Positions 17,863 through 42,184 of a stretch of 42,184 nucleotides of DNA are shown here, in pieces. Under the pieces are notes generated by a model. It was not told where the DNA came from, searched no databases, and saw only the letters and a list, made by a program, of their open reading frames with translations. The DNA lies in the NCBI GenBank assembly GCA_013115125.1, contig JABANN010000290.1:1-42184 (forward strand). Reading direction: 5' to 3'. A program made the translations under genes and the position numbers. The DNA is from Perkinsus olseni (lineage: Eukaryota). Positions within the stretch are counted from its first letter, which is position 1; each line of letters opens with the position of its first letter.

Positions 17863-17872
17863 NNNNNNNNNN
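17863..17872. other. Assembly gap (10 N)
   Basis: Run of n flanked by C-rich, low-quality-looking sequence. Confidence 1.
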
Positions 17873-28831: not shown

Positions 28832-30055
28832 AAAGAGACTTCTAATCTTTAAACTCAGGTTTTCTGTATTTCTCAGACCATATTCATTTTCAATTTTCGT
28901 GTTCTCATCATTTTGTTTTTCTTGTATAGAAGTAGTGTAGTCACAACAGTGCAGTGATCGCTAATTAGATTGTACGATCGCTCTTGATGGGAATCCTAGA
29001 TTCTGCGCAGTCCTCGAGTCAACCTCACACAATTGAAAACAGTACGGCATGCTTCGCTCTTCGCGTTGCCGTGGCATTTTCCTACTGGCTTCATTTCTTT
29101 TCAGCAACCAGCAAGAAGACCGAAGAAACCGAGAAAAAGTGAAGACACAGCGAAGCCGAAACTTTGACTGGCGTGTGCTGCTGCTGCTACTACCAGTCGC
29201 GGCCTTGCACACTATAGAGCGACGGCGGTCGTGGTTGTTGTTGCAGATGTCTGCATATTGCCGATGTTACATTTTCTATTCCAATACTAATAAAAGAAGA
29301 AGATTTATATCCTTTGAATAACGAGGGTTACTGCAAACGCGGCGACGGTTTAGGTGATGTTGCGGCGGAGTTATGGTATTCCTGAGGTTTCATAAGGAAT
29401 TCTGAACTCGTGTTCGTCAGTTTACAGAGGAACGGGAGTAGCACAGGTATTGAAAGGCAGTGAGTTCGAGCTACTCGGATAACACGTGTGATGTTGGGGA
29501 AGAGTGGTATTGATGACGTCTTTCCCTCACCGCGTTGGAAAGCGTAGACTACCGTGTTACTATATCCTAATATTATCGCATTTTAATATTATTACCACCG
29601 GAATGAGAATGCATCCCGGAATGTCGATGGCCTCCTCCCTGTAAGAGCAACACTCTTTGGCTTGATGAACAGGCTAAACTGACCCCCCCCCCACGGAAAG
29701 GTACATCGGTGCTAGTCTGACTAAGCCGTACTGTCGTAGGCGTTGGACTTTGAACTCACACACACGAGAATGAATTTTCGATAACCACGTTAGGTGAATT
29801 GGTCAGCTAACCGCTGGGTACCGCGATTGTTTTGGGAATCGCCTTGGGTGAGAAAAATGCGGTTAATACGTCAAGACTTGACGGTGACCTCTGCGGTGCC
29901 TTATCCAGTTAGTCCAATTGCTGCTACTGCGAAGAGCGGAGGTGAAACTATTATCAGAATGGAGTACAACGCAAAAAGCACGGGGAAGTAACACATCATT
30001 GCCACCAAAATTGTTTCAACAATCGTGGGCAGTGAACATGACTTAGCAAGCACGC

Positions 30056-33000
30056 TCACTCCATCCTGAGAACCAGGACAGGAAAAAGGAGCGCGACGAG
30101 GCAAAAGCCCACCTCATTCGTTTGTAGTGGTGGTGAAGAATCTGCGGTCGAAGCTTCTCAAGAAGGACTACGAACTGATCGATCGTGTCGTTGTTGAATC
30201 CTATCAACCTGAGGACGTCAATTTCTGCCATAAAATCGTGGACTGCAACGGGCGTCCACCTGAGACACTTCTGAATGTTCAGGAAAAAGCAATCCAGGTG
30301 GTAGTCGGTCATCGCAACGATCTCGTGGACCTCCTCGAGGCTCCTTCCTTTGTACTCACTCGGACCTCCAAAAATCTAAAGCGCGATGCTCAGGTAAACA
30401 GCCCAGTGCTGGCAACCTGGATCACTCCGATGAAGTAGTCCGTCTGTGCCTTCTTTATCGCCTGCAATTTAGCCTCGCCCTCAAAAAACATGTGAATTCG
30501 CTTATCGCGCTCCACACACTCGTACCTTCGACAAGCTAACCTCGGTGCCCGCGGTGGGCACCATCACCCTCGACGTGTCCTTACAGTTGATCCACGAATT
30601 TCTCCACGCCTTGGATCTTCCCGATTCTTCGGAATAATTCGTCAACGCCGTCCTCATTATTCCTTCGCTCCGCTGCATCCATGCGTACGCGAGAGCCTGA
30701 TTCCTCCAGATGAGAAGACCCACCGTTACGATGATGAAAACCCACCTGTTATTATCTCAGAGCGCACAGAGTTGAGTATCCGCAGCGAGTCGGGTATCAC
30801 CTACCAGTAAGAGCGCTCGAACTCGAGTTGATTTCCGTGATATCGGCTGGCCATGTTTCAAGCCACGATATTCAATGCCCCTACGTTAATTTCTTTCTCT
30901 TCATACAGTTATACAATACTTCGTTTTCACTTTCGTTTACTTGAATTTTTGGTCCTCAGTGACCGAGCGGATTTCGGAACAAATGCTAGGCCTCACGTCT
31001 TCATCTATCTCCTCGAGCTCCTCCGCGCTTTTAACGAAGCATTCAAGGACGGCATCGAAATGGTAATCGGAGATGTTCATGTCATAGTGGGTAGGTTTGA
31101 GGTTGTCTTGGTCGTATCTGGCGAGGCTCGTGGATCGGGTACGGAGCGAAAGCCGGGCTGGATTACTGTACAAGTCCGCCGAAGGCTCCTGAGAGGAACT
31201 GATAGAGTTTGGTAGTTATAGAACGTTCCTTGGCTTTGTTCTTATCGAAGTGGAATCTGAAACACATTCAGAGCCCGATTAGTTCAGCTGGATAGAATGT
31301 CTGCCTACGGAGCAGATGGTCGTAGGTTCGAATCCTGCATCGGGTATTTCACGTCATGTCTTACTTGATGCGGCTATCTTCCGTAAAGTACTGAAACATC
31401 CCCTCCGCCACCGCTTCCAGATTGCTATCACCCCCGATGCGTTCAAGTAAGTTGAGCCCATTACGGGGCTCTATCACTATCTCCGACTGCCGATCCAGCA
31501 CCGCATTGCGGACCTGAGGCGACGTGTATGGCCGCGGACTCCGACTCTCGGAAGGGCCTCTCACTGAGTCTAGCGTAATGATGACTTCATCCACCAGGCT
31601 GTCCTCATGGCCTTGGGAAAGCAGAGCCCTCGACATGTTCGACAAGAAGGCGTCAAAGTGATAGTCCGTGATCCCCAATGGTTCGTGAATATCTGCGATC
31701 GAAGAGGGTAGGCGGCCCTTTCAGCGCCACTCTCACCTGTGAGGTCTCGCCCTTCATACTCGGGAGGGCCACCGAACAGTTCTACGAAGAAACTGAACAG
31801 AACCACTAGGAAGGTAGAAGCGGTTGCTGCTTACACTATCGTTGCTTCCTTTATGAACTGAATACTGTCCGCGGGGAAGAAGTCTTTGATTCTGTTGTCT
31901 TTGGCGATGAGGTGGAAGAGGGAGTCCATCAGCCGGGTGATGCCTTCCCACTCGACTGCACAACACGAGCATGCGCGATAGCGTCGCAAGCAGACAGTGT
32001 CCTACAGAGCCGCTCGTAGAGCCCCTCGCCTTCTTCGCTCCGGGCAAGGTTTTGGCGAGCCATCTCGCGACGAACTGTGCATCCGGTTGTTATCTCTGGC
32101 CGCAGTTTCTGTAGTATCTACCAAGCGTTCCATAACGGTGGATGCGGCAGTGGGCTGCTCGTCTGAGTTTATTCTATCAGCCAAGCCTTGGGGTCACCGG
32201 AACGTCACAAAGACCAGAGGCGAGTCATGATGGTCAGTGTCATTGATAGTGCTAGACCGACGATAAAGTCGAACTGCTGACGACCTACCGAAAGGAGCTC
32301 GTCAAGATCTGCCGAACTGATATGGAGAGCTTCGCCGGCCTGTCTGATGAGACATATAACGGCGTCGAAGTGGAAGTCTGTGATGTTCATGGAATAGTGT
32401 GACGGTTTCAAGTCCGCTAGATCGTATCTGGATGGTCACCTCCCGTAGGGGCTTCGAGAGCTCTCGAGGAGGGCTACTGTTTCGATCCTCCGGTTACAGT
32501 TCCTATCAACTGAGTGATCTTTTTCTTGATGGTAGCTATCTTCGCCTTGTTCTTCTCGAAGAAGCTTCTTGTACCTGACCGTACACCCTCCTCCGGCGGC
32601 ACGGCAAGACACCACGGGGAGATATCACTCGGGGTGCCCTAGGGATGCAGAAAGCCGGCGATTCGGCCGTCTAACAAGGGGAGCAGCTCCCGGCTGCCTA
32701 CTGCTGGAATGAGGCGAGCGTCAGGGCTACAGGTAACGGCGTGGTGATTAGTGGGCGGGATGTTTGGAGTATATTCAGAGCCTGATTAGTTCAGCTGGAT
32801 AGAATGTCTGCCTACGGAGCAGATGGTCGTAGGTTCGAATCCTGCATCGGGTATTTTCGCACCCTACTAGCGACTTGGACTCGACAAAAACACCGCCCTT
32901 CGTACGTGAATCCTCCATCGCCTCAGCATAGAATATGTCCGATAGTTTAGCTATCGACATTTCGCCACCAAGTCGCTCATACAGAGGCTTCTTGTTCGCC

Positions 33001-36000
33001 ATCGCTTGAGCTCGTCTCACCTGAGCCACTGATACCCGCCGCCGCCGCCGGCCATTCACCGGCCGTTCAGGCTCCCTTACATCATGATCAGCCGGTTTGA
33101 CTATCTGGGAACGGCACGTCTCCATTAGTATAACGCAGGAGTCTATTGTCTCAGGGTCTTGGTCAGCCTCCTCTAGAACTGAACGGCACGAAGCAACGGA
33201 ACCATCGGTGATACGTCTAACGGATGTATAGATCTCGACTCGGGCATATCATATGGGATGAGTTTCGCGGTTTGTCCTTGAGGGGAACGACCCAGACAGA
33301 AACAAGAAGAAATTCGGAATTGCCGTATTTCGTTGCATACCAATATGTGTGAAGCTATTGATCTGAAATTTTCCTACTACTTGGCCGATTTGACATCCGT
33401 GGATGCATAAACTCTAAGAATCAGCCGGTAATGATGGCTCCCCTCGCTAAGCAAGGACTTCGTATTCACAGCCTCTATCGAGTGCGCGTTACAGCAAGTA
33501 GGGAGGGGGCAGTTATAAGAGCTGACATCCAGTCAACTTATTTAAGGATGACTTCTCCCTCCCAAAGCGTTGATCGTTCCTCACCCGTCTTCATCAGATT
33601 CACGAAGGCGTCCATATGGTAGTCATATATGTCGATCATCTGATGGATCCGTTTGAGGTCTCGTCCCTTGTACCTGGAAACACGAGGATGATATCTTCGC
33701 CAGCTCAGTGTCTGTCAGAGGAAGAAGCCTATCCCGGTGAGGACAATCTCCAATCTTTCTGTGTGGGAGCTCCCATTCCAACGCGCGCACCGGTTCGGTG
33801 AGACTCTCGCCGATGCGTTCAGTTAAAGGCTCTCGGGAGCGATTGATATGCAGTGCGGTTACGATGTGCTCAGGACTTTTCGGACGAAGCGCTGAGTTTT
33901 TAGGATTTCCCCGCACTGAGTCTGCAAAACAGCCTCCGTGTTTTCCCCAACGGACTCTCTAGGTGAGCTAACCTACTCCTCCGCTCCACCGAACAGGTGT
34001 GTTAGGAACTTAGTCTGAGCTCGGGCAATGGCGCCCAGCTTCGCTCCGCTCAAAAATGGAGATAGTCGTTCATCTTTGTCCACTTGCCTGAGTTAACAAC
34101 ATCGTGAAGGGCTCGGGCGAGACCGGTGTCTCACTCGTAAAGTCGTTCCACTGCCTTCGCGATACCCTGCTCTCCCCCGAGCTGTTTGAAGAGCCCCTCC
34201 GTGCCTTTCAAAAGACACGGCCGTGAGGGAACTCCAGCAACACGTCATGTAGCACAGAAAAAGGTAGCTGCGCACCCCCACCTCCAATCTCAGTCCGCCT
34301 CTTGGCGAGCTCTAACCGGACTGTGCAGCCGGCTGTGATGATCCCTCGGACATGAGACACACACGCCAGGAAGTCCACCTTTGCCTGAGGAAGTCGCGGC
34401 AGTGGTATGTAGGCATCCATCCACCTTCCCATGGACGAGAAGCCACGAGCGTCGCCATTTAGCACGACGATGGACAGGGATAATGCGATCAATTTCGAAG
34501 TAGCAATGAAAGACAGCGCTCTAGTACGCTCCTCGCAAGAAGACAGAGTGATCATTGATGCCTCCTGTCGACACACAAAGACCCTCACCGTCTTCTCAAT
34601 CTCCATCAGCTCGCAGGCTACCTTCATATTCTCCATCAGCGCGTCGAAGTGATAGTCAGTAATGTTGATACCTGTCAGTAGGCGCATCGCTCAGCTCACC
34701 ACAGACAAGGCAGACCTCGGTGCATCTCCTTCAGCGCTTTGACGTCAAAGTGGACCTCGGGGGCTCCTGTTATCATCGACAGGAAAGTACACATCCTCTC
34801 CTTTATCTGCTCAACCTACAACAGAACCGCTATGATCCGTCGGTACACAGCTGATTAAGATCGACAATCTCAAAGCACCAATCTCCTGGTTGAGGCGCTC
34901 TATGCCATTCCGGTGGAGGCAGTTACAACTACCTCTATTTCGATTGCTCCCATATCGGAATAGCAAGAAGCAGGAGTGTGGTCATTCTCTCAACGGAAGA
35001 GGCCTTTCCTGCCCACTCACTCGGTCCTTCGGCAGATCGAAGAAGAACTTGATGCGTGGATCCAGCAGGGCTCCGCTGTACATCGTCTCCACGACAGCCT
35101 CCAGGTTCATGTCTCCACCAATTCGCTCAAATATAGTCGCGCCTGAGTTCCCAACGGCTCCCACTAACCGGACTGTTAGAAAGGTCTCTCACCATCCACG
35201 AGTTTGAACTGGGACAGTTGGTCCCTCTTCCTGTTCAGGACATTCGGGCGAGCGAACTCGAGAGTGATCAGCACCTGCGATATCTCCGGTCGCGCTGAGG
35301 TGACGCCGTCACGCTGGACGCACCTCGGCGATGATATCCTCGTCTACCCCAAGTCCGTGGAGAGCCTTCTCCGCGTTCATCAGGAAACAGTCGAAGTAGA
35401 AGTCGTCCAGGCCTGAATAGGAGGGCGGTAGCGCTTTGAAGTCGTTATTCCGGGGCTTTCCAGGGAGGGCTTTTTCGAAATCATGTACTCGGATGAGGTC
35501 TCACAATGCTCGGCAAGCTACAGAGGATATACATAAGCAGCCCGTCTAGCTCAGTCGGTAGAGCGCAAGGCTCTTAACCTTGTGGTCGTGGGTTCGAGCC
35601 CCACGGTGGGTGCATTTCACGAAACACACTCAATTATCCTCGGATAATGTATGGTAGAGTAGAACAGCCTCCTAGAGAACCCTCCTCACCAAGCCCTCTA
35701 TGTATTTCCTCCAATTCTCGACCCTTGTACTCCTTCGGACCACCAAAACGCTCCGTCAAGTAGGCTCGGAGGGCGGTACGGATTCGGTGTAGGTCTCTGC
35801 CTGTTTACAATCAACGCAGTCGTACCAACTCACCGGGGGCACCTCCTCACCTTGAAAGAACTTCTTCAACCTCCGGTCGACTTTGCTCAAGTCGAAGAGC
35901 CTCTTAATAAAGTCTTCGAGCCCTTCGCCATAACCCACCTTAACGAACATCATGTCCGTACCTGAGCTCGAGGCGCGCGCTTCCGTAGGAGCGCGTGAGA

Positions 36001-38583
36001 GGCACGGCACACGAGGGGCAAGACACGTACCCGTCTCTTCATTCTTCTTGGCGACTTCCATACGAACAGTACAGCCCGTGGTTATCAACTTACGACAACG
36101 CCCGAGCTCAGCCAGGCCATCGGTGATCGCATTCGGATGGATATCTGGAGAACTTCTGATACTCCCGTACAGCGAAGCGACCGAGAGAGCCGATCAAGCG
36201 CGCAAGATAGAAACTAGACTTGGTTACCTAGCTCGTTGAAGACCTGCTGAAACATCTCCAGGACTGCATCAAAGTGATAGTCGGTGATGTTCATGTGGTA
36301 GTGCACCGGCTGGATATTCTCTTCGTCATACCTTGAAGAAAGAGGAGCTCTGGGAGCTCTGGGTGGCCGAACTGGCGATGGGTCGTCGTGAGAGCTCCCT
36401 ACGACGTTGTACACACAGGACGTTATAGTGCTCGTAGCATTCCCCACAGGAGAGAACGTCTAATTACTGAGAATGGAATTATTTCGGTCGCTTAGTACGC
36501 CAGGTGACGGAGAGCCGCGGGTCTGGGCCAGACCGTCTGGCAAACCCCAGCAGAACCTCCAACAACCACGAGGGCCCGTCCAAGAGCTGATCTCGCGACT
36601 CACGTTTTCGGACCGCCAAAGAGTCCGGTAACGAAGCTGCACATCTTCGCCTTAATGGAGTCCATCTTCTTCTGATTCTTCTCGAAGTGGGCTCGTGTGC
36701 GAGGGTCTCTCACTGCCTTCTCGTATACCTGCCAATCCCCTCTCCGACCTAGCGATCTCGAAATCGGCAGTGGGAGTGATAGAAATATTATGCTCAGATA
36801 TCAACTAGCACTGCTCAGTAATGACGTCCAAGCCAGCTTCGACAGGCGATCAATGTACAGTAGAAGCTAGATCGTTCTCAAGGTCCGTAGATGGCTCACT
36901 ATAAGATACTCAACACGCGTAAGAATAAATCCGACCAAGCGCGCATCAAGGCAAACTCACCAGCTCTATCGCTGTCTCCAAGTTGAGATCTCCGCCAAGC
37001 CGCTCAAACCTGAGCAACAGAAAAGCTTTATAACATTCATTATGCAGCTCATTGAGCATATAATGCCCTGTGGCCGCTGATGGCGCCTAATGACGCTCAC
37101 TCCGAGCTACCGAGGGCAGTAGTAGCTCCCCTAGGTCATAATTACGTCAAGACGGGATCCTCAAACATCCTCAAAGCTCTACGAAGCGCGAAGTCGCCGA
37201 GGACGAGAGCCTTCACAATCTACTCACAGAGACTGCTTCGGATCATCCACCTTCTCCCTCCCACGAAGGCCGTCTGCTCCATCACCCTCGCCAGCCTGCT
37301 GAGTCTTGGCCGCCACCTCGTCTATCTGATGTCACCGAAGATATCTCTATCGATACTAAGCGCACGGTGCTTCATACCAAGTATCGGAATTTGTTGATGT
37401 TAATTTTCGCTTTGACCATCTGGTCCACCAACCTCTCCTTGGGTACATCTGTTGTCCCTGAAAGTTCACATTCTACGTGTCCTCCTGCTTTGGTTACTGC
37501 TACAAGTTAATGCGTGCCGGCCGCACGGTACGAACTGGTATGAAACCCCTTGGGAAGAGATTCCAACAACTTTCAGATCGTCATTCCGGCTGCACGAGGC
37601 AAACAATGAGATCAATACATACTCCTATATACCCACCAACATGGGGCCACCCAAAGAAAGCAGTCTAACGATATGCATAGTACTCACACTAGCAACAATC
37701 TTATAATAATATCATCATCATAAGATTTATCATTGGAACATAGGGTGGGCCTCTTGGTAGGTATATAGGGGGATGTATTGATCCCATAGTTTGCCTTGTG
37801 CAGCCGCAATGACGATCTGAGAGTTGTTCGGATTCCTTCCCGAGGCTTCCATACCGGTTGATGATACCGTGAGTCCGACACAAGAATAGCGAAATTAAAA
37901 ATATTTCCTAACGATACATCTTCGAATCGATACTTCGATTATCCTGGAGAATAATAATCGACCTTCTGATGTATCATTACCGCATCGAGCTCAAAGATCA
38001 GGAATTGTATTATTGCTGAGAACATCTCTCAAGATTTCACTAGAAAATGGAATATTGAAATAAATTGATATTTGATAGGCTTAATAATGGCCCAATGGGA
38101 CCCCGAGTGTGTGTGAGTTTGTACTCCAACGCTGGCGATTCCAGCTTAGTTAGACTCTTGCCGATGTGCTCAGTTGGAGAGTCTCCAATGGAGACTCTCT
38201 GTAGCGTTGACATTCAATGCAATCAGGCAGATTATCGAGACGACCCGAGTGTGCAGCTTACCCTTTCCCTTAGAGTTCGGCATCGCAGTCTCGACAGCCT
38301 GCCGCAGATAGTTCATTTGAACGCTGACAAAGAAGGCGGCTCCCCTGCAATGCTCTCCGATCTCGAGGATACATACACTAGCTTTGCCACACGGTCCTTG
38401 ATGAAGACCATATCGCTATGCGCTTTCGATATACCTGAACAGCAGCACCAATACCAATATCAGGCGATGGGCCCTGGGAGAGATGGTACTGTCATTCAGC
38501 TTGTTTGCCTGATCGGACTTGGAGAGGAGAGTTTCATAGGGTGCTGGTCGGCTCTCCGCAGCTGTTCTCTCGACAGCAGACAT
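30056..38583 (-). CDS. Multidomain group I truncated hemoglobin: N-terminal coiled coil plus 8 tandem 2/2 globin domains, (A-B)x4
   Basis: Phase-consistent GT-AG splicing from ATG 38583 (MSAVERT) to TGA 30056-30058. Eight repeats of L(F/Y)ERxGG...(Y/F)...DxR...FF...GG...Y...H(F8)...ITDxHFD. The globin exons are well supported; the 5'-most exons are less certain. Confidence 0.88.
31273..31346 (+). tRNA. tRNA-Arg(ACG), antisense within globin intron 31257-31364
   Basis: Full cloverleaf: GCCCGAT/ATCGGGT acceptor stem, TCTGC-CTACGGA-GCAGA anticodon arm, GGTTCGAATCC T-loop. Confidence 0.96.
32780..32853 (+). tRNA. tRNA-Arg(ACG), antisense within globin intron 32575-32905
   Basis: Same as 31273-31346 except one C>T change giving a U-G acceptor pair; followed by TTTT. 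Confidence 0.95.
35540..35612 (+). tRNA. tRNA-Lys(CTT), antisense within globin intron 35413-35689
   Basis: GCCCGTCTAGCTCAGTCGGTAGAGCGCAAGGCTCTTAACCTTGTGGTCGTGGGTTCGAGCCCCACGGTGGGTG, a canonical eukaryotic Lys-CTT cloverleaf. Confidence 0.96.
37524..37871. repeat. Foldback/MITE-like inverted repeat, ~130-bp arms, ~90-bp spacer
   Basis: 37524-37652 matches the reverse complement of 37743-37871 (e.g. aacaactYtcagatcgtcattScggctgcacRaggcaaac), roughly 80% by eye. Lies in the modelled globin intron 37458-38261. Confidence 0.85.
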
Positions 38584-38931
38584 GTCGAGAGAAACAAACA
38601 ACTGCCATTCGGGAGTCCAATCGCCTACAATCGGAAGTGTGACCTGCTAGAAATTCGAAGATGGTGACTTCGAGGTGTAATGACAATGCAATTAGAGTAT
38701 AGCTGATCCAATGTCTTGGTAAGATGGGCTGGAAGACGTAGCCCAAGAGAAGGCGCTTCCCGTCCATCACGCTCAGCTGAGCTGCACCCGGCTTGGGGTG
38801 TGTGAGAAAAGACGCTAAGCGGGCCTCCGCGAGCTTCAACATCAAATGGCAGTGTACGTGACGTCTCACGATGCGTCCAAGTAGCCAGTTGACCCTCCAT
38901 CGCATTGAGGAGTAACTCATAATCACATCTC

Positions 38932-39003
38932 GGTTCTATGGTGTAACGGTTAGCACTCCAGACTCTGAATCTGGCGATCTGGGTTCAAATCCCGGTAGAA
39001 CCT
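38932..39003 (+). tRNA. tRNA-Gln(CTG)
   Basis: GGTTCTA/TAGAACC acceptor stem, CCAGA-CTCTGAA-TCTGG anticodon arm, GGTTCAAATCC T-loop, TTTT terminator. Confidence 0.96.
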
Positions 39004-39297
39004 TTTTGACCACTACCCCTCCATCTCGAAAACCAAAGTGCGGTTGCAATTTCGGGTCTCGCGCATGGGTCATGCTCATGTGCTGCACTGCTGTTTATAC
39101 CGAGTACACTAAGTGATACTCATAGAGGCGCAGCGAGACGCTAGGATTAGGAACCTAGTTGGCCATCTATCCATGCAACCCCGAGCCTCACCCGAGTACT
39201 ACCTACACTCCCCCTTCCCCACCATTACAAAACTCCACTCCACACAGTTTAATAAGAAACGCTTATGAAACTCGCAGAAACCCAAGCTCATCCTCCC

Positions 39298-42043
39298 TCA
39301 CGCGAGCATTGTCATGTTCCCTCCCTGTGCATTGTCCAAGAGTGCTCGCATGGAGCTCTCATTGAGGCCCTCCAGCATCCCACGGCACCTCCGACTGTTC
39401 AGCGCAATCACATCCCAACCGCGCTCCTGCCACTTGACCGTGCAGCCGAGCAGGGCGTGAAGATCCTACCTTCATGTGCCGCACCTGAATCGCTGCCGAG
39501 CCTATAGGTTCGTCAGAGTTTCGCGCAAACTCGGAGAGTATCTGAAGGCCACAAAACCCTCAAGCGAGCCCGTTAGCGGCGTGCCGGCGACGAGCACAGC
39601 CACGCGTGGTTCATTCTTTATACCACTCTCTCAGCAAATCACCAGGCATAAAGCGGGTGCGTGTTTCGCTCTCAAACTACGTGCTTTACGATGCACCACA
39701 CTGTACTGTCCAGTTCAGTAGAGTTGATACAAGATTCCCAATAAGATTCTTTGAAGCACGTCTCTTCGCCCCAAACCTCCCTCTCCTTTACTACAGCAAT
39801 GCACCGCTTCTGCACACCGTCCGTCAACACGATGTCCACAACGTAGGGAGTGTCCTCGATGTGAACACAGGTTTCGTGGGGTACCTGAAGACCACCGACA
39901 GGAGCAAAAACATGGCAACTTTCAGGTCCGAGAACCAGGCGAGGCCGATGGGAAGTTCAGATCCAAGACTGAGCCGTCGCTGAGCTTAGAGGCCTATTGC
40001 GATTATAGCGGAGTCTCTGTAGCTTCAAATTGGGCCAACGTGATTAAAGTAGAGTGGACGTTTCTGTGATGGTCCGATCGAGGAATCCTATTTCACGCGG
40101 GGTTCTAGCGCTCAGCACTTTGACTCCGGGAGTCCCATTTCAATGAGGAGAAGCTGTGTTCCCGGCTGACTCAGAATGTTACCATGTGATAGTGAGAAGC
40201 CGGTACAACAGCCCGCAGCGGCGGCTACTGCTAGTACTACCTCATATGCCATGAGGACCTTCGAAAGTTCCTGGCAGAGGAATGGAAACGGAACCGAGTA
40301 GCCCTCCCTGAGACGAGAAACTACTCAATGCCACGTTCTGGTCCACAATACAGCATCGCTTCCCGTTGAGGAATGGCAAGAGACCAAGATACGGACTACA
40401 CCACTATCGAGAACTCCTCTCAACGATAGCTTTTGTTCTCCGAAAAGCAATACCCCTGCCTGAGGATGATACCACCTAGACTTGATCCATTCTCGTATAC
40501 AATCAGCAGCGAAGGGCTTCGGTATGACATGCTCGACGTAAGGGAAGTCCATCGCCTGGCAGATCCACATCCATCCAACTCTGAGCTTCTCAGACTCCCA
40601 TGCAGTACCTGCCAAGCCACCTCACTTGCGTAATATATATATAGATCAAGTTTAGATAAAAGTGCTATCGGGAGAGAGCCGACCGGCGGATCTCCTGTCA
40701 CAAAATGGCACCAGCAAATAACACTGCTAGCGCACCGGGAGGGCTGCGTAGCCTAGAAAACCGTTACTCACATCGTACTAGTTCATCTGTAGCGAAATAC
40801 AGCACTATATAGTCTTTACCGAGAAAAATGGAACAGTGAAAAGGGAGACTACTATGCCACAGGCGAGATGATGTACATCAAAATACGTTACTATACAGTG
40901 CATTACTTCACTAGCATCACCAGAGTCCAGCCAAGACCACCGCCCATGCCCCGCGAAGTAACTTACCGCTGCACAGTTTCCGTAGGAGCAGTGTCATGTC
41001 GTACTCGTGTCGAGACTGCAGCTCTGGCATCATACATAGAGCCCATAGGACTTTAACTGAGGTGACACCACGGGCAACTCAAAGACGCCTATTACTCTTC
41101 CGCGAGTACGCGAGTATTTTTCTACTGATACCAAAGCTTAGCATCTAGTGTTTAGTTCATCTTAGTTCGAATTCCACCAACGCTCTGATCTACGTAGGTG
41201 GTGAGTTCAAAGGCGAAAGTGCTGTGATTTACTGATGCGAGAACCTGCCCTGAGGCCTCCCCGTGGTGTTCCTGGGAACTCGCTCTCCCAGAGGAGAATT
41301 TTTTTGATATCCCAGAAACGACTGCGATGCACTTCCACGATAGAAGAACAGAATGTGTTACGGTGGCCTGCAGCTGAACAGTCCCCTCCTTTACTAGCTG
41401 TCTCCTCTTGTACGTAGTCCACATGCTGTACCATATACTCCACTATTGGGGAGTACTGGGTCATGGCCTGAGGGAAAGACCTGCCGTTCTCCAGTTGTTC
41501 AGGGTTCAACGACCCGCTCAATTTGTCCTCTAAGCTCGAGCTTCAAAAACGACGAAGAGCCACGGTCATAATACCGCAGACTAGAACTCGATTGCTGCTG
41601 CAGTGAAGAGGGCGATGAATCAACGAGATCGAGGCAACGCTTCAGGGGCAGCAGCAGGGTATAGCTAATACCCTGATACGTGGTATAGTTCACGGTTAAG
41701 ACTGCCGAATCTGTTGTGTAGTAATATTTCGTGAGAGACAGTTCGGGTAATCATAGCATACGCAGTAGAGTCACTCGTGTAGCATATCTTCTATCTTCAC
41801 CCGAACTACCCGACCCGCCCCCCACGCGCCATGGTCTACAATCAGAGACCACCCCGCCTTACATCTCCAACTCCGAAATTAGCGCATGCTTGGAGAAGAT
41901 CACCAAAGCTCGTTAGACCAATCTGATAGTCATTCATGATGACAGCGCGGCGGGACAGCACTGCTCACCACGTGGCCCATGGGCTCGCCCCAGGTGAGGC
42001 CCTCCTCAGCGACGGGGACACACGACTGCAGGACCTTGGTCAT
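39298..42043 (-). CDS. Multi-exon protein, possibly TLDc-domain (Rtc5-like)
   Basis: ATG 42043 MTKVLQSC...GHV/IGLTSFGDLLQACANFGVGD/KICYTS... with canonical splice sites. The later fragment WQVLHGSLR...WTSLTSSMSYRSPSLLIVYEN and the C-terminal KWQER...SRR...MRALLDNAQGG resemble TLDc/Rtc5 motifs. Middle exons are not fully resolved. Confidence 0.45.
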
Positions 42044-42112
42044 TGCCCTAGGATGTGCTAGTTGATGATTATCGAGTGCAGTAACGATGGCTGAAGAAGG
42101 TCACGAATATCT

Positions 42113-42184
42113 GGTTCTATGGTGTAACGGTTAGCACTCCAGACTCTGAATCTGGCGATCTGGGTTCAAATCCCGGTAGAACCT
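42113..42184 (+). tRNA. tRNA-Gln(CTG), identical to 38932-39003
   Basis: Exact 72-nt copy; the window ends at its last base. Confidence 0.95.

What the first reader, a model, noticed from the sequence alone, without database searches (positions are those of the whole stretch)
31257..35689. Three intact tRNA genes nested antisense in introns of the globin gene
Seen: Arg(ACG) at 31273 and 32780 and Lys(CTT) at 35540 are all on the + strand inside introns of the - strand gene. In the 108-nt intron 31257-31364 the 74-nt tRNA fills most of it, leaving 16 nt to the splice acceptor and 18 nt to the donor, so the branch-point region probably overlaps the antisense tRNA sequence. Inference: dual constraint on the sequence, and convergent Pol III/Pol II transcription that could couple globin expression or splicing to Pol III activity.
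Basis: partly seen in the sequence, partly recalled or inferred. Interest (0 to 1): 0.72.

Follow-up and report, generated by a model that had tools for sequence, protein, structure and literature searches.

The report
Three tRNA genes inside globin introns
Three intact tRNA genes sit backwards inside introns of an eight-domain globin gene of a Perkinsus parasite; the arrangement is real, but it is a kind already well known from other eukaryotes.

Summary
ARAGORN and Rfam both find tRNA-Arg(ACG) at 31273-31346 and 32780-32853 and tRNA-Lys(CTT) at 35540-35613, all on the + strand. Each lies wholly inside a GT..AG intron (31257-31364, 32575-32905, 35413-35689) of a minus-strand gene. The host is a Perkinsus olseni-type gene of eight tandem truncated-haemoglobin domains with at least 35 introns, most of them 42-60 nt. 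Removing the three introns gives a protein that aligns without gaps to an intronless homologue from a metagenome. No spliced RNA contig over these three introns was seen.

The tRNAs look like ordinary multi-copy Pol III genes. Tested new point: the two Arg copies are an 84-nt unit, 99% alike. They sit 7 nt apart at the homologous site of two globin domains that diverged before the split from the intronless relative. They therefore share an origin and have been kept while everything around them decayed.

Intron-nested tRNA genes in either orientation are common in C. elegans (44% of 609). Pol III/Pol II interference from an antisense intronic unit is documented (Polr3e). Interest is modest.

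The parts
31273..31346 (+). tRNA-Arg(ACG) copy 1, canonical cloverleaf, B box GGTTCGAATCC, TTT directly after the discriminator base
31257..31364 (-). 108-nt GT..AG intron (phase 2) in globin domain D7. It leaves 16 nt between tRNA and acceptor and 18 nt between tRNA and donor. Without the tRNA only 34 nt remain, less than the shortest intron of the gene (42 nt).
   Evidence: gap-free alignment to the intronless homologue
32780..32853 (+). tRNA-Arg(ACG) copy 2, 73 of 74 identical to copy 1. The one change turns C4-G69 into U4.G69, so the pair is kept. TTTT follows directly.
32575..32905 (-). 331-nt GT..AG intron (phase 1) in globin domain D5, 7 nt from the homologous position of the D7 intron
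35540..35613 (+). tRNA-Lys(CTT), canonical cloverleaf, TTT 1 nt after the end
35413..35689 (-). 277-nt GT..AG intron (phase 1) in globin domain D2. Domain D3 has a tRNA-free 44-nt intron two codons away in the domain alignment.
30040..38583 (-). Host gene: eight tandem truncated-haemoglobin (Bac_globin) domains after a ~130-aa N-terminal part. ATG at 38583, at least 35 introns. The 3' end (about 30040-30112) is not refined.
31266..31349 (+). 84-nt unit (7 nt ATTCAGA + tRNA + TTT) shared at 99% with 32773-32856. No similarity beyond it.
38932..39003 (+). tRNA-Gln(CTG), same strand, about 350 nt upstream of the globin ATG. Not intronic; part of the same-strand run of tRNA genes.
42113..42184 (+). 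Second, identical tRNA-Gln(CTG) at the window edge. Its relation to the upstream minus-strand gene is undetermined.

Best explanation
These are ordinary nuclear tRNA genes with internal A/B-box Pol III promoters and a short T-run terminator. They belong to large multi-copy families and are lodged in antisense orientation in true spliceosomal introns of an eight-domain truncated-haemoglobin gene of a Perkinsus olseni-type genome. Pol III makes the tRNAs from the + strand. Pol II reads the minus strand, and the antisense tRNA sequence leaves the globin pre-mRNA with the intron. Inferred: introns are simply the places inside a compact, intron-rich genome where an inserted tRNA gene does no harm, so the nesting is a tolerated by-product and not a device. 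The two Arg copies descend from one copy and have been kept alike by selection on the tRNA, possibly with gene conversion between the two copies 1.5 kb apart. Any head-on Pol II/Pol III interference or slower splicing of these introns would be a side effect.
For: The tRNAs are intact. Scores are 59.6-64.7 bits for the three and the cloverleaves are canonical. The only Arg1/Arg2 difference keeps the 4:69 pair. A T-run starts 0-1 nt after each of the 4 tRNAs that have downstream sequence.

The tRNAs are multi-copy. The contigs of DNA run X1 break at each of the three tRNAs (records 29722-31297, 31320-32809, 32829-35567, 35584-37500). [quoted passage not shown]

The introns are real. All 35 have GT..AG ends. 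Of the 8 joints shown for run X7, 7 are CT..AC, coincide with model introns and are absent from DNA runs X1 and X8. The spliced protein aligns to an intronless 1166-aa homologue (L001, 42% identity) with no gap at 31 of 31 junctions of the globin part, including the three tRNA introns. Retention would give a stop at once (Arg1), after about 43 codons (Arg2) or after about 18 codons (Lys).

Introns act as safe harbours. Of the 35 introns, 19 are 42-60 nt. The long ones hold insertions: the three tRNAs, and in the 804-nt intron a 92-nt inverted-repeat element and a piece of a high-copy repeat.

There is precedent. In C. elegans 44% of 609 tRNA genes are intronic, which is no more than chance, and 56% of those are co-oriented with the host (PMC4999229, passages).
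Against: No RNA contig joining across any of the three tRNA introns is among the 15 joints shown (20 more were not shown). At the Arg2 intron the X7 contigs shown run from exon into intron. Record 20 (32826-33018, then spliced to 33079-33179) and record 19 (32254-32732) are unspliced at this intron, although record 20 is spliced at the next intron. X7 is RNA only by a guess, and it also holds unspliced contigs over tRNA-free introns (33150-33576, 36302-36572). So this shows neither poor splicing nor good splicing.

Arg1 and Lys are followed by only TTT, with no run of four T within 400 nt, so termination is assumed and not shown. Expression of these particular loci was not tested. No genome is held, so the genome-wide frequency and orientation of intronic tRNAs in Perkinsus is unknown. 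All 5 tRNAs share a strand opposite to the genes, which a purely random model gives with p about 0.06-0.12.
Confidence: 0.7

Rival explanations
1. Selected regulatory coupling. Pol III complexes on the antisense tRNA genes act as roadblocks or splicing modulators, so that globin output follows Pol III activity.
For: The orientation is head-on for 3 of 3 tRNAs. One tRNA fills its intron and sits 16-18 nt from both splice sites. The X7 contigs shown at the Arg2 intron are unspliced there but spliced next door. Precedents exist: the antisense MIR in Polr3e lowers host expression by transcriptional interference (PMC5358760, abstract and outline), and nuclear tRNAs placed in a reporter intron lowered mRNA (PMC7722341, passage).
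Against: Nothing links a globin to Pol III activity. The other long introns carry unrelated insertions. The antisense tRNA gives the intron RNA no unusual stability (z -0.29). X7 also shows unspliced contigs over tRNA-free introns. In C. elegans intronic placement is at chance level.
Confidence: 0.12
2. The intron and the tRNA are one evolutionary unit. Insertion of the Arg tRNA gene created this intron, or the intron with its tRNA was copied from one globin domain to the homologous site of another.
For: The same isoacceptor, in the same orientation, lies 7 nt apart at the homologous site of D5 and D7. No other domain has an intron within 4 codons of it. The copies share 7 nt of 5' flank, which the consensus flank of other genomic copies does not show (loose ends at 31273). 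D5 and D7 separated before the split from the intronless relative: joining W_D5 and W_D7 as sisters is rejected (p-AU 0.024), and orthologous domains cluster. The intron is only 34 nt without the tRNA. GTAC-starting words stand at both ends of the D5 intron.
Against: Domain-specific intron positions are the rule in this gene and nearly all lack tRNAs. The sequences between the tRNA and the splice sites are unrelated in the two copies. A D5+D7 clade is not rejected (p-AU 0.088), so a single old acquisition followed by duplication remains possible. Intron positions shared by odd and even domains show that introns predate the duplications. There is no conversion tract in the flanking exons (50% nt identity).
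Confidence: 0.08
3. The intronic copies are silent relics: intact-looking but not transcribed, or not terminated properly.
For: There is only TTT after Arg1 and Lys. The region upstream of Arg1 that a Pol III initiation factor would occupy is coding sequence of the host. Intronic tRNAs in C. elegans show lower Pol III occupancy (PMC4999229).
Against: The two Arg copies are 73 of 74 identical, with a pair-preserving change, while the surrounding intron is unalignable and the flanking exons are 50% identical. Neutral relics would have decayed. Short T-runs also follow other genomic copies (loose ends at 32853 and 35602). Contigs of the diverged DNA run X8 stop inside Arg1 (at 31292, restarting at 31320) and about 20 nt into Arg2, as in X1. 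This fits the tRNAs being present there too.
Confidence: 0.08
4. Gene-model artefact: these stretches are not introns but gaps between separate small globin genes.
For: No RNA joint over these three introns was shown. The models of the three Perkinsus species are predictions.
Against: Each tRNA interrupts a single Bac_globin domain. Exons bridge the domain boundaries. The intronless homologue is one 1166-aa ORF collinear with the model. Seven other introns of the same gene are spliced in X7.
Confidence: 0.02

Closest known systems
Intron-nested tRNA genes of Caenorhabditis elegans (e.g. sup-7 in C03B1.2; Sagi et al. 2016, PMC4999229, passages read)
   Same: [quoted passage not shown] Pairing with the host gene is conserved between species, and the host promoter influences the tRNA.
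   Different: Here the host is a multi-domain gene of an alveolate parasite. One intron is barely longer than the tRNA. Two copies occupy homologous introns of internal repeats. No expression data are available.
Antisense MIR in intron 1 of mammalian Polr3e (Yeganeh et al. 2017, PMC5358760, abstract and outline seen)
   Same: A Pol III unit is nested antisense in an intron of a Pol II gene.
   Different: That unit is a SINE relic in a gene for a Pol III subunit, which makes a feedback loop. Here the units are true tRNA genes in a globin gene, and no functional link is evident or tested.
nimtRNAs, intronic tRNA look-alikes of mitochondrial origin that enhance splicing (Hoser et al. 2020, PMC7722341, passages read)
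   Same: A tRNA-shaped sequence in an intron, also in reverse-complement orientation, can act on splicing of the host.
   Different: Those are mitochondrial-derived and act as RNA elements of the pre-mRNA. In the same study nuclear tRNAs lowered mRNA. The intron RNA here shows no special stability.
Introners and other transposon-derived introns (Gozashti et al. 2022, PMC9860276, search listing only)
   Same: An inserted DNA element becomes, or defines, a spliceosomal intron. This would apply only under the novel reading.
   Different: Introners are multi-copy elements whose own ends supply the splice sites. Here the stretches between the tRNA and the splice sites are unrelated in the two copies.
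Expanded tRNA gene families of Perkinsus marinus, targets of Dada transposons (Kojima and Jurka 2013, PMC3706591, passages read)
   Same: Same genus. There are very many tRNA gene copies, so nested copies are expected.
   Different: That paper concerns Ile, Leu, Gly and Tyr genes and transposons inserted into them. It says nothing in the passages read about tRNA genes in introns.

Membership tests
Nuclear tRNA gene (Pol III type 2) | Cloverleaf and sequence profile above the curated threshold | tested here: met
   RF00005 59.6-64.7 bits against 29; ARAGORN cloverleaves
Nuclear tRNA gene (Pol III type 2) | Internal A and B boxes | tested here: met
   Read directly from the sequence: the T-arm has GGTTCGAATCC (Arg) and GGTTCGAGCCC (Lys), and the D-arm has TAGTTCAGCTGG and TAGCTCAGTCGG. 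The consensus they are compared with is recalled, not from a call.
Nuclear tRNA gene (Pol III type 2) | Oligo-T terminator just downstream | tested here: inconclusive
   TTT (Arg1, Lys) or TTTT (Arg2, Gln1) starts 0-1 nt after the gene, and there is no T4 within 400 nt for Arg1 and Lys. Whether T3 suffices in Perkinsus is unknown.
Nuclear tRNA gene (Pol III type 2) | Transcribed and processed to a mature tRNA | not testable with these tools
   No raw RNA reads were available and only contigs were laid. Multi-copy sequence cannot be assigned to a locus, apart from the U4 variant.
Intron-nested tRNA gene | [quoted passage not shown] | tested here: met
   Intron borders. Alignment to the intronless homologue is gap-free at all three junctions.
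Intron-nested tRNA gene | Host intron is removed from the mRNA | tested here: inconclusive
   Seven other introns are spliced in X7. No joint over the three tRNA introns is among the 15 shown, and the contigs at the Arg2 borders are unspliced.
Intron-nested tRNA gene | tRNA-host pairing conserved in relatives | tested here: inconclusive
   Contigs of the diverged run X8 break at Arg1 and Arg2 as in X1. DNA of other Perkinsus species was not available. The distant intronless relative L001 has 0 tRNAs in 13.8 kb.
Pol III/Pol II interference unit (Polr3e-MIR type) | Antisense Pol III unit inside an intron of an expressed Pol II gene | tested here: met
Pol III/Pol II interference unit (Polr3e-MIR type) | Pol III occupancy, and a change of host expression when the unit is removed | not testable with these tools
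   Needs ChIP and deletion.
tRNA-derived SINE or tRNA pseudogene | Degenerate tRNA head joined to a tRNA-unrelated body or tail shared between copies | tested here: not met
   Similarity between the Arg copies ends 7 nt upstream and 3 nt downstream of an intact tRNA. The permissive Rfam scan finds no further tRNA-like remnants in 29000-42184.
Introner-type intron-generating element | Copies share sequence up to the splice sites | tested here: not met
   The stretches between tRNA and splice sites are unalignable, and the intron lengths are 108 and 331 nt.
Truncated (2-on-2) haemoglobin, Pfam Bac_globin PF01152 (host gene) | Profile match above the curated cut-off | tested here: met
   P0002 has 8 stretches, 315.5 bits against 21. 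The exon 31361-31720 alone scores 23.2 bits.

The most novel reading that the evidence does not exclude
The Arg-ACG tRNA gene and its intron are a single heritable unit. Either the tRNA insertion itself created the intron, or the intron with its tRNA was copied to the homologous site of a paralogous globin domain. Alternatively, the pair has persisted since before the globin domains duplicated, which is longer ago than the split from an intronless relative. In the 108-nt intron the tRNA would now be indispensable filler, because only 34 nt remain without it and the shortest intron in the gene is 42 nt. That would lock gene and tRNA together.
Probability: 0.08. Interest if true: 0.7.

Novelty: new member of a known kind. 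Interest (0 to 1): 0.3.

Why it matters
If only the ordinary reading holds, this is a clean, well-mapped example of intron-nested tRNA genes in Perkinsus. I found no report of them in that genus. It is also a caution for gene prediction, since the three species' models differ at these exons. The tested extra point is that two copies of one tRNA sit at the homologous intron site of anciently diverged internal repeats, 99% alike amid saturated divergence. This gives a natural marker for how long a tRNA gene can stay tied to one intron. It also offers a compact natural test case for head-on Pol II/Pol III conflict next to splice sites.

Tried and rejected
RNA evidence.
- No RNA holder is listed for the stretch. 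X7 is RNA only by a guess.
- Several places inside short introns have no X7 cover (for example 31122-31131 and 36579-36597). I draw nothing from that.
So splicing of the three tRNA introns stays open at the RNA level.

Genome-wide frequency.
- No genome is held.
- An exact-match scan of metagenome contigs for the Arg tRNA gave 0 hits.

Remnant tRNAs or other RNA genes in the other long introns: the Rfam scan at E up to 1 over 29000-42184 gave only the five tRNAs and weak overlaps on the Gln genes.

Structure of the antisense tRNA in the intron RNA: MFE -23.3 kcal/mol, z -0.29, and 73 of 200 shuffles fold as well. There is no sign of a selected structure.

Branch site: no enriched motif in the last 38 nt of the 35 introns. 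YTNAY candidates occur in a minority.

Recent gene conversion between D5 and D7 exons: nucleotide identity is 50% overall. The local maximum of 70% near the intron equals that of D1 against D5, which has no such intron. Rejected.

Gln pair as a segmental duplication: only the tRNA itself (77 nt) is shared.

Codon match between host and tRNAs: the host uses CGT/CGC/CGA for 48 of 82 Arg codons and AAG for 56 of 84 Lys codons. This is unremarkable and was not pursued.

Literature.
- Perkinsus + tRNA genes + introns: 18 papers, 15 listed, none on this topic by title.
- P. olseni + genome assembly + tRNA: 2 papers, both unrelated.
- Perkinsus + truncated hemoglobin: 2 papers, 1 listed, unrelated.
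- Supplementary files were not consulted. S3 Fig of PMC4999229 holds the orientation breakdown that I cite from the main text.


Full report
OBSERVATION. ARAGORN finds five tRNA genes in the window, all on the + strand: Arg(ACG) at 31273-31346 and 32780-32853, Lys(CTT) at 35540-35613, and Gln(CTG) at 38932-39003 and 42113-42184. Rfam's tRNA model finds the same five at 59.6-65.9 bits against a gathering score of 29. A permissive scan of 29000-42184 adds nothing else of substance. The cloverleaves are canonical.

THE HOST GENE. The minus strand between about 30040 and 38583 carries repeated truncated-haemoglobin signatures, and single exons already hit Pfam Bac_globin. The longest exon finds multi-domain proteins of Perkinsus olseni, P. 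marinus and P. chesapeaki. The P. olseni model P0002 (1219 aa) has 8 Bac_globin stretches (E 2.4e-95) and maps collinearly on the window in exact-word blocks. My spliced model is 98.4% identical to the partial P. olseni model P0003, 93.8% to P0002, 83.9% to P. chesapeaki and 74.6% to P. marinus. The window is therefore from P. olseni or a very close relative. The model has 35 introns, all GT..AG. Of these, 19 are 42-60 nt and 13 are 100 nt or more. Introns sum to 4911 nt, which is 58% of the span. The 3' end was not refined, so one more intron is possible.

THE THREE INTRONS. For the first Arg gene, the only frame-preserving GT..AG solution is intron 31257-31364. The Lys intron is 35413-35689 (277 nt). 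The second Arg intron is 32575-32905 (331 nt) with the splice pair that reproduces the P. olseni annotation. Each intron interrupts one globin domain (D7, D5 and D2).

ARE THEY REALLY SPLICED OUT? Three lines of evidence bear on this.
- (a) Run X7, which is RNA only by the tool's guess, has 8 joints in the table shown. Seven are CT..AC and coincide with model introns: 33021-33080, 33179-33584, 34088-34134, 36332-36603, 36729-36960, 37010-37227 and 37326-37377. They are absent from DNA runs X1 and X8. The eighth lies in a repeat outside the gene and also stands in DNA.
- (b) A metagenome contig (L001) from an unidentified eukaryote encodes two tandem intronless homologues. The 1166-aa ORF is 42% identical and collinear with P0002 over residues 31-1209. 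My spliced protein aligns to it with no relative gap at 31 of 31 junctions of the globin part, including the three tRNA introns.
- (c) Retention would end the reading frame at once (Arg1), after about 43 codons (Arg2) or after about 18 codons (Lys).

Against this, no joint across any of the three tRNA introns is among the 15 joints shown (20 were not shown). The X7 contigs shown at the Arg2 intron run from exon into intron. One of them is spliced at the neighbouring 60-nt intron (records 19 and 20). X7 also holds unspliced contigs over tRNA-free introns, so this is neither proof of retention nor of splicing.

THE tRNA GENES. The T-arm and D-arm sequences have the form of internal Pol III promoter boxes. 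This is read, and the consensus is recalled. A T-run starts 0-1 nt after each gene: TTT for Arg1 and Lys, TTTT for Arg2 and Gln1. Arg1 and Lys have no run of four T within 400 nt. Flanks of other genomic copies, seen as loose ends, also show short T-runs. The contigs of DNA runs X1 and X8 break at the tRNAs, as expected for sequence repeated elsewhere in the genome. [quoted passage not shown]

THE TWO ARG COPIES. They form an 84-nt unit made of 7 nt ATTCAGA, the tRNA and TTT. The two units are 99% identical and 1507 nt apart, with no similarity beyond them. The single difference keeps pair 4:69. In the alignment of the eight domains, the two introns lie 7 nt apart at the same site, after the conserved EDSR. 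No other domain has an intron within 4 codons of it.

The domains fall into an odd clade and an even clade (100/99 and 100/100). With the domains of L001 added, orthologous domains cluster across the two organisms (D1 98/94, D3 91/89, D5 86/88). Making the window's D5 and D7 sisters is rejected (p-AU 0.024). A D5+D7 clade including the L001 orthologues is not rejected (p-AU 0.088), and D1+D5 fits as well as the free tree (p 0.515). D5 and D7 exons are 50% identical at the nucleotide level, with no conversion tract.

The two tRNA copies therefore share an origin. Chance placement of the same isoacceptor, in the same orientation, within 7 nt of homologous sites and with 7 shared flank bases is negligible. 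They have also been held constant while intron and exons around them diverged to saturation. Whether the pair is as old as the domain duplication, or was copied later between domains, is open.

CONTEXT. The base intron size in this gene is about 50 nt. The long introns are those with insertions: the three tRNAs, and in the 804-nt intron a 92-nt-arm inverted repeat and a fragment of a high-copy element. The Lys intron lies two codons from a tRNA-free 44-nt intron of domain D3, which fits insertion into an existing intron. Without its tRNA the Arg1 intron would be 34 nt, below the 42-nt minimum seen here. By inference, the tRNA may now be needed as filler.

MECHANISM. Best supported (0.70): these are ordinary Pol III tRNA genes tolerated in introns of a compact, intron-rich genome, and they are removed from the host pre-mRNA with the intron.
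- Shown: intact genes, true intron placement, common origin and conservation of the Arg pair.
- Inferred: transcription, termination at T3, and neutrality for the host.

The rivals are:
- selected Pol III/Pol II coupling (0.12);
- intron and tRNA as one unit of gain or spread (0.08);
- silent relics (0.08);
- model artefact (0.02).

COMPARISON. In C. elegans 44% of 609 tRNA genes lie in introns, which is no more than chance, and 56% of those are co-oriented with the host. Host promoters affect them, and tRNA-host pairs are conserved between species (PMC4999229, passages). An antisense Pol III-occupied MIR in Polr3e intron 1 lowers host expression by transcriptional interference (PMC5358760, abstract and outline). 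tRNA-like elements in introns can change splicing, and nuclear tRNAs in a reporter intron lowered mRNA (PMC7722341, passages). The kind is therefore known. What is new is its description in Perkinsus, the near-minimal intron, and the paired copies in internal repeats. I found no paper on intronic tRNAs in Perkinsus.

LIMITS.

VERDICT. This is a new member of a known kind, with interest 0.30.

Noticed in passing
window 30040-38583 (-); L001 328-4239 and 4333-7833 (+): The host is a single polypeptide of eight truncated-haemoglobin domains of two alternating types. Odd and even domains form two clades with 100/100 support. A metagenomic eukaryote (its neighbours are Mito_carr and MCM genes) has two tandem, completely intronless versions (1303 and 1166 aa, 42% identity). 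The octa-domain architecture is therefore old, and one lineage gained or lost about 35 introns. I found no paper on Perkinsus truncated haemoglobins.
   Followed up: partly
window 29650-29767: A high-copy element with a poly-C tract lies just beyond the 3' end of the globin gene. Summed depth in DNA run X1 is about 5400 in that bin, against about 200 for bins without a tRNA. A 26-nt piece recurs, inverted, at 38107-38132 in the 804-nt intron. One X1 contig joins it directly to a Lys-tRNA-like sequence elsewhere (joint 29767 to 35541). There is no Rfam match.
   Followed up: partly
window 37548-37845: An inverted repeat with 92-nt arms (86% complementary, 114 nt apart) lies inside the largest intron (37458-38261). 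It looks like a MITE-type insertion.
   Followed up: no
window 38932-39003 and 42113-42184: Two identical tRNA-Gln(CTG) genes lie on the same strand as the three intronic tRNAs, so five tRNA genes in 11 kb all oppose the protein-coding strand. Gln copy 1 lies only about 350 nt upstream of the globin start codon, in the likely promoter or leader region.
   Followed up: partly
window 36961-37009, 35800-35851, 34204-34282: The public P. olseni model P0002 mis-models parts of domains D1, D2 and D4. Spliced X7 contigs support an exon at 36961-37009 that encodes the start of D1, which P0002 replaces with other sequence. The P. marinus model fuses the upstream gene and skips the exon after the Arg1 intron.
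   Followed up: partly
window 32906 / 32574: The D5 intron lies 7 nt from the D7 position. The words at its two ends both start with GTAC (GTACGAAG at the donor, GTACAAGAAG after the acceptor). P. marinus and P. chesapeaki models read K where P. olseni reads R at this joint. This looks like a 7-nt slide of both splice sites.
   Followed up: partly
window 31273, 32780, 35540: Both Arg copies and the Lys tRNA start with a G1.U72 wobble pair at the top of the acceptor stem. The Gln genes have G1-C72.
   Followed up: no
window 17863-17872: A run of 10 N (assembly gap).
   Followed up: no
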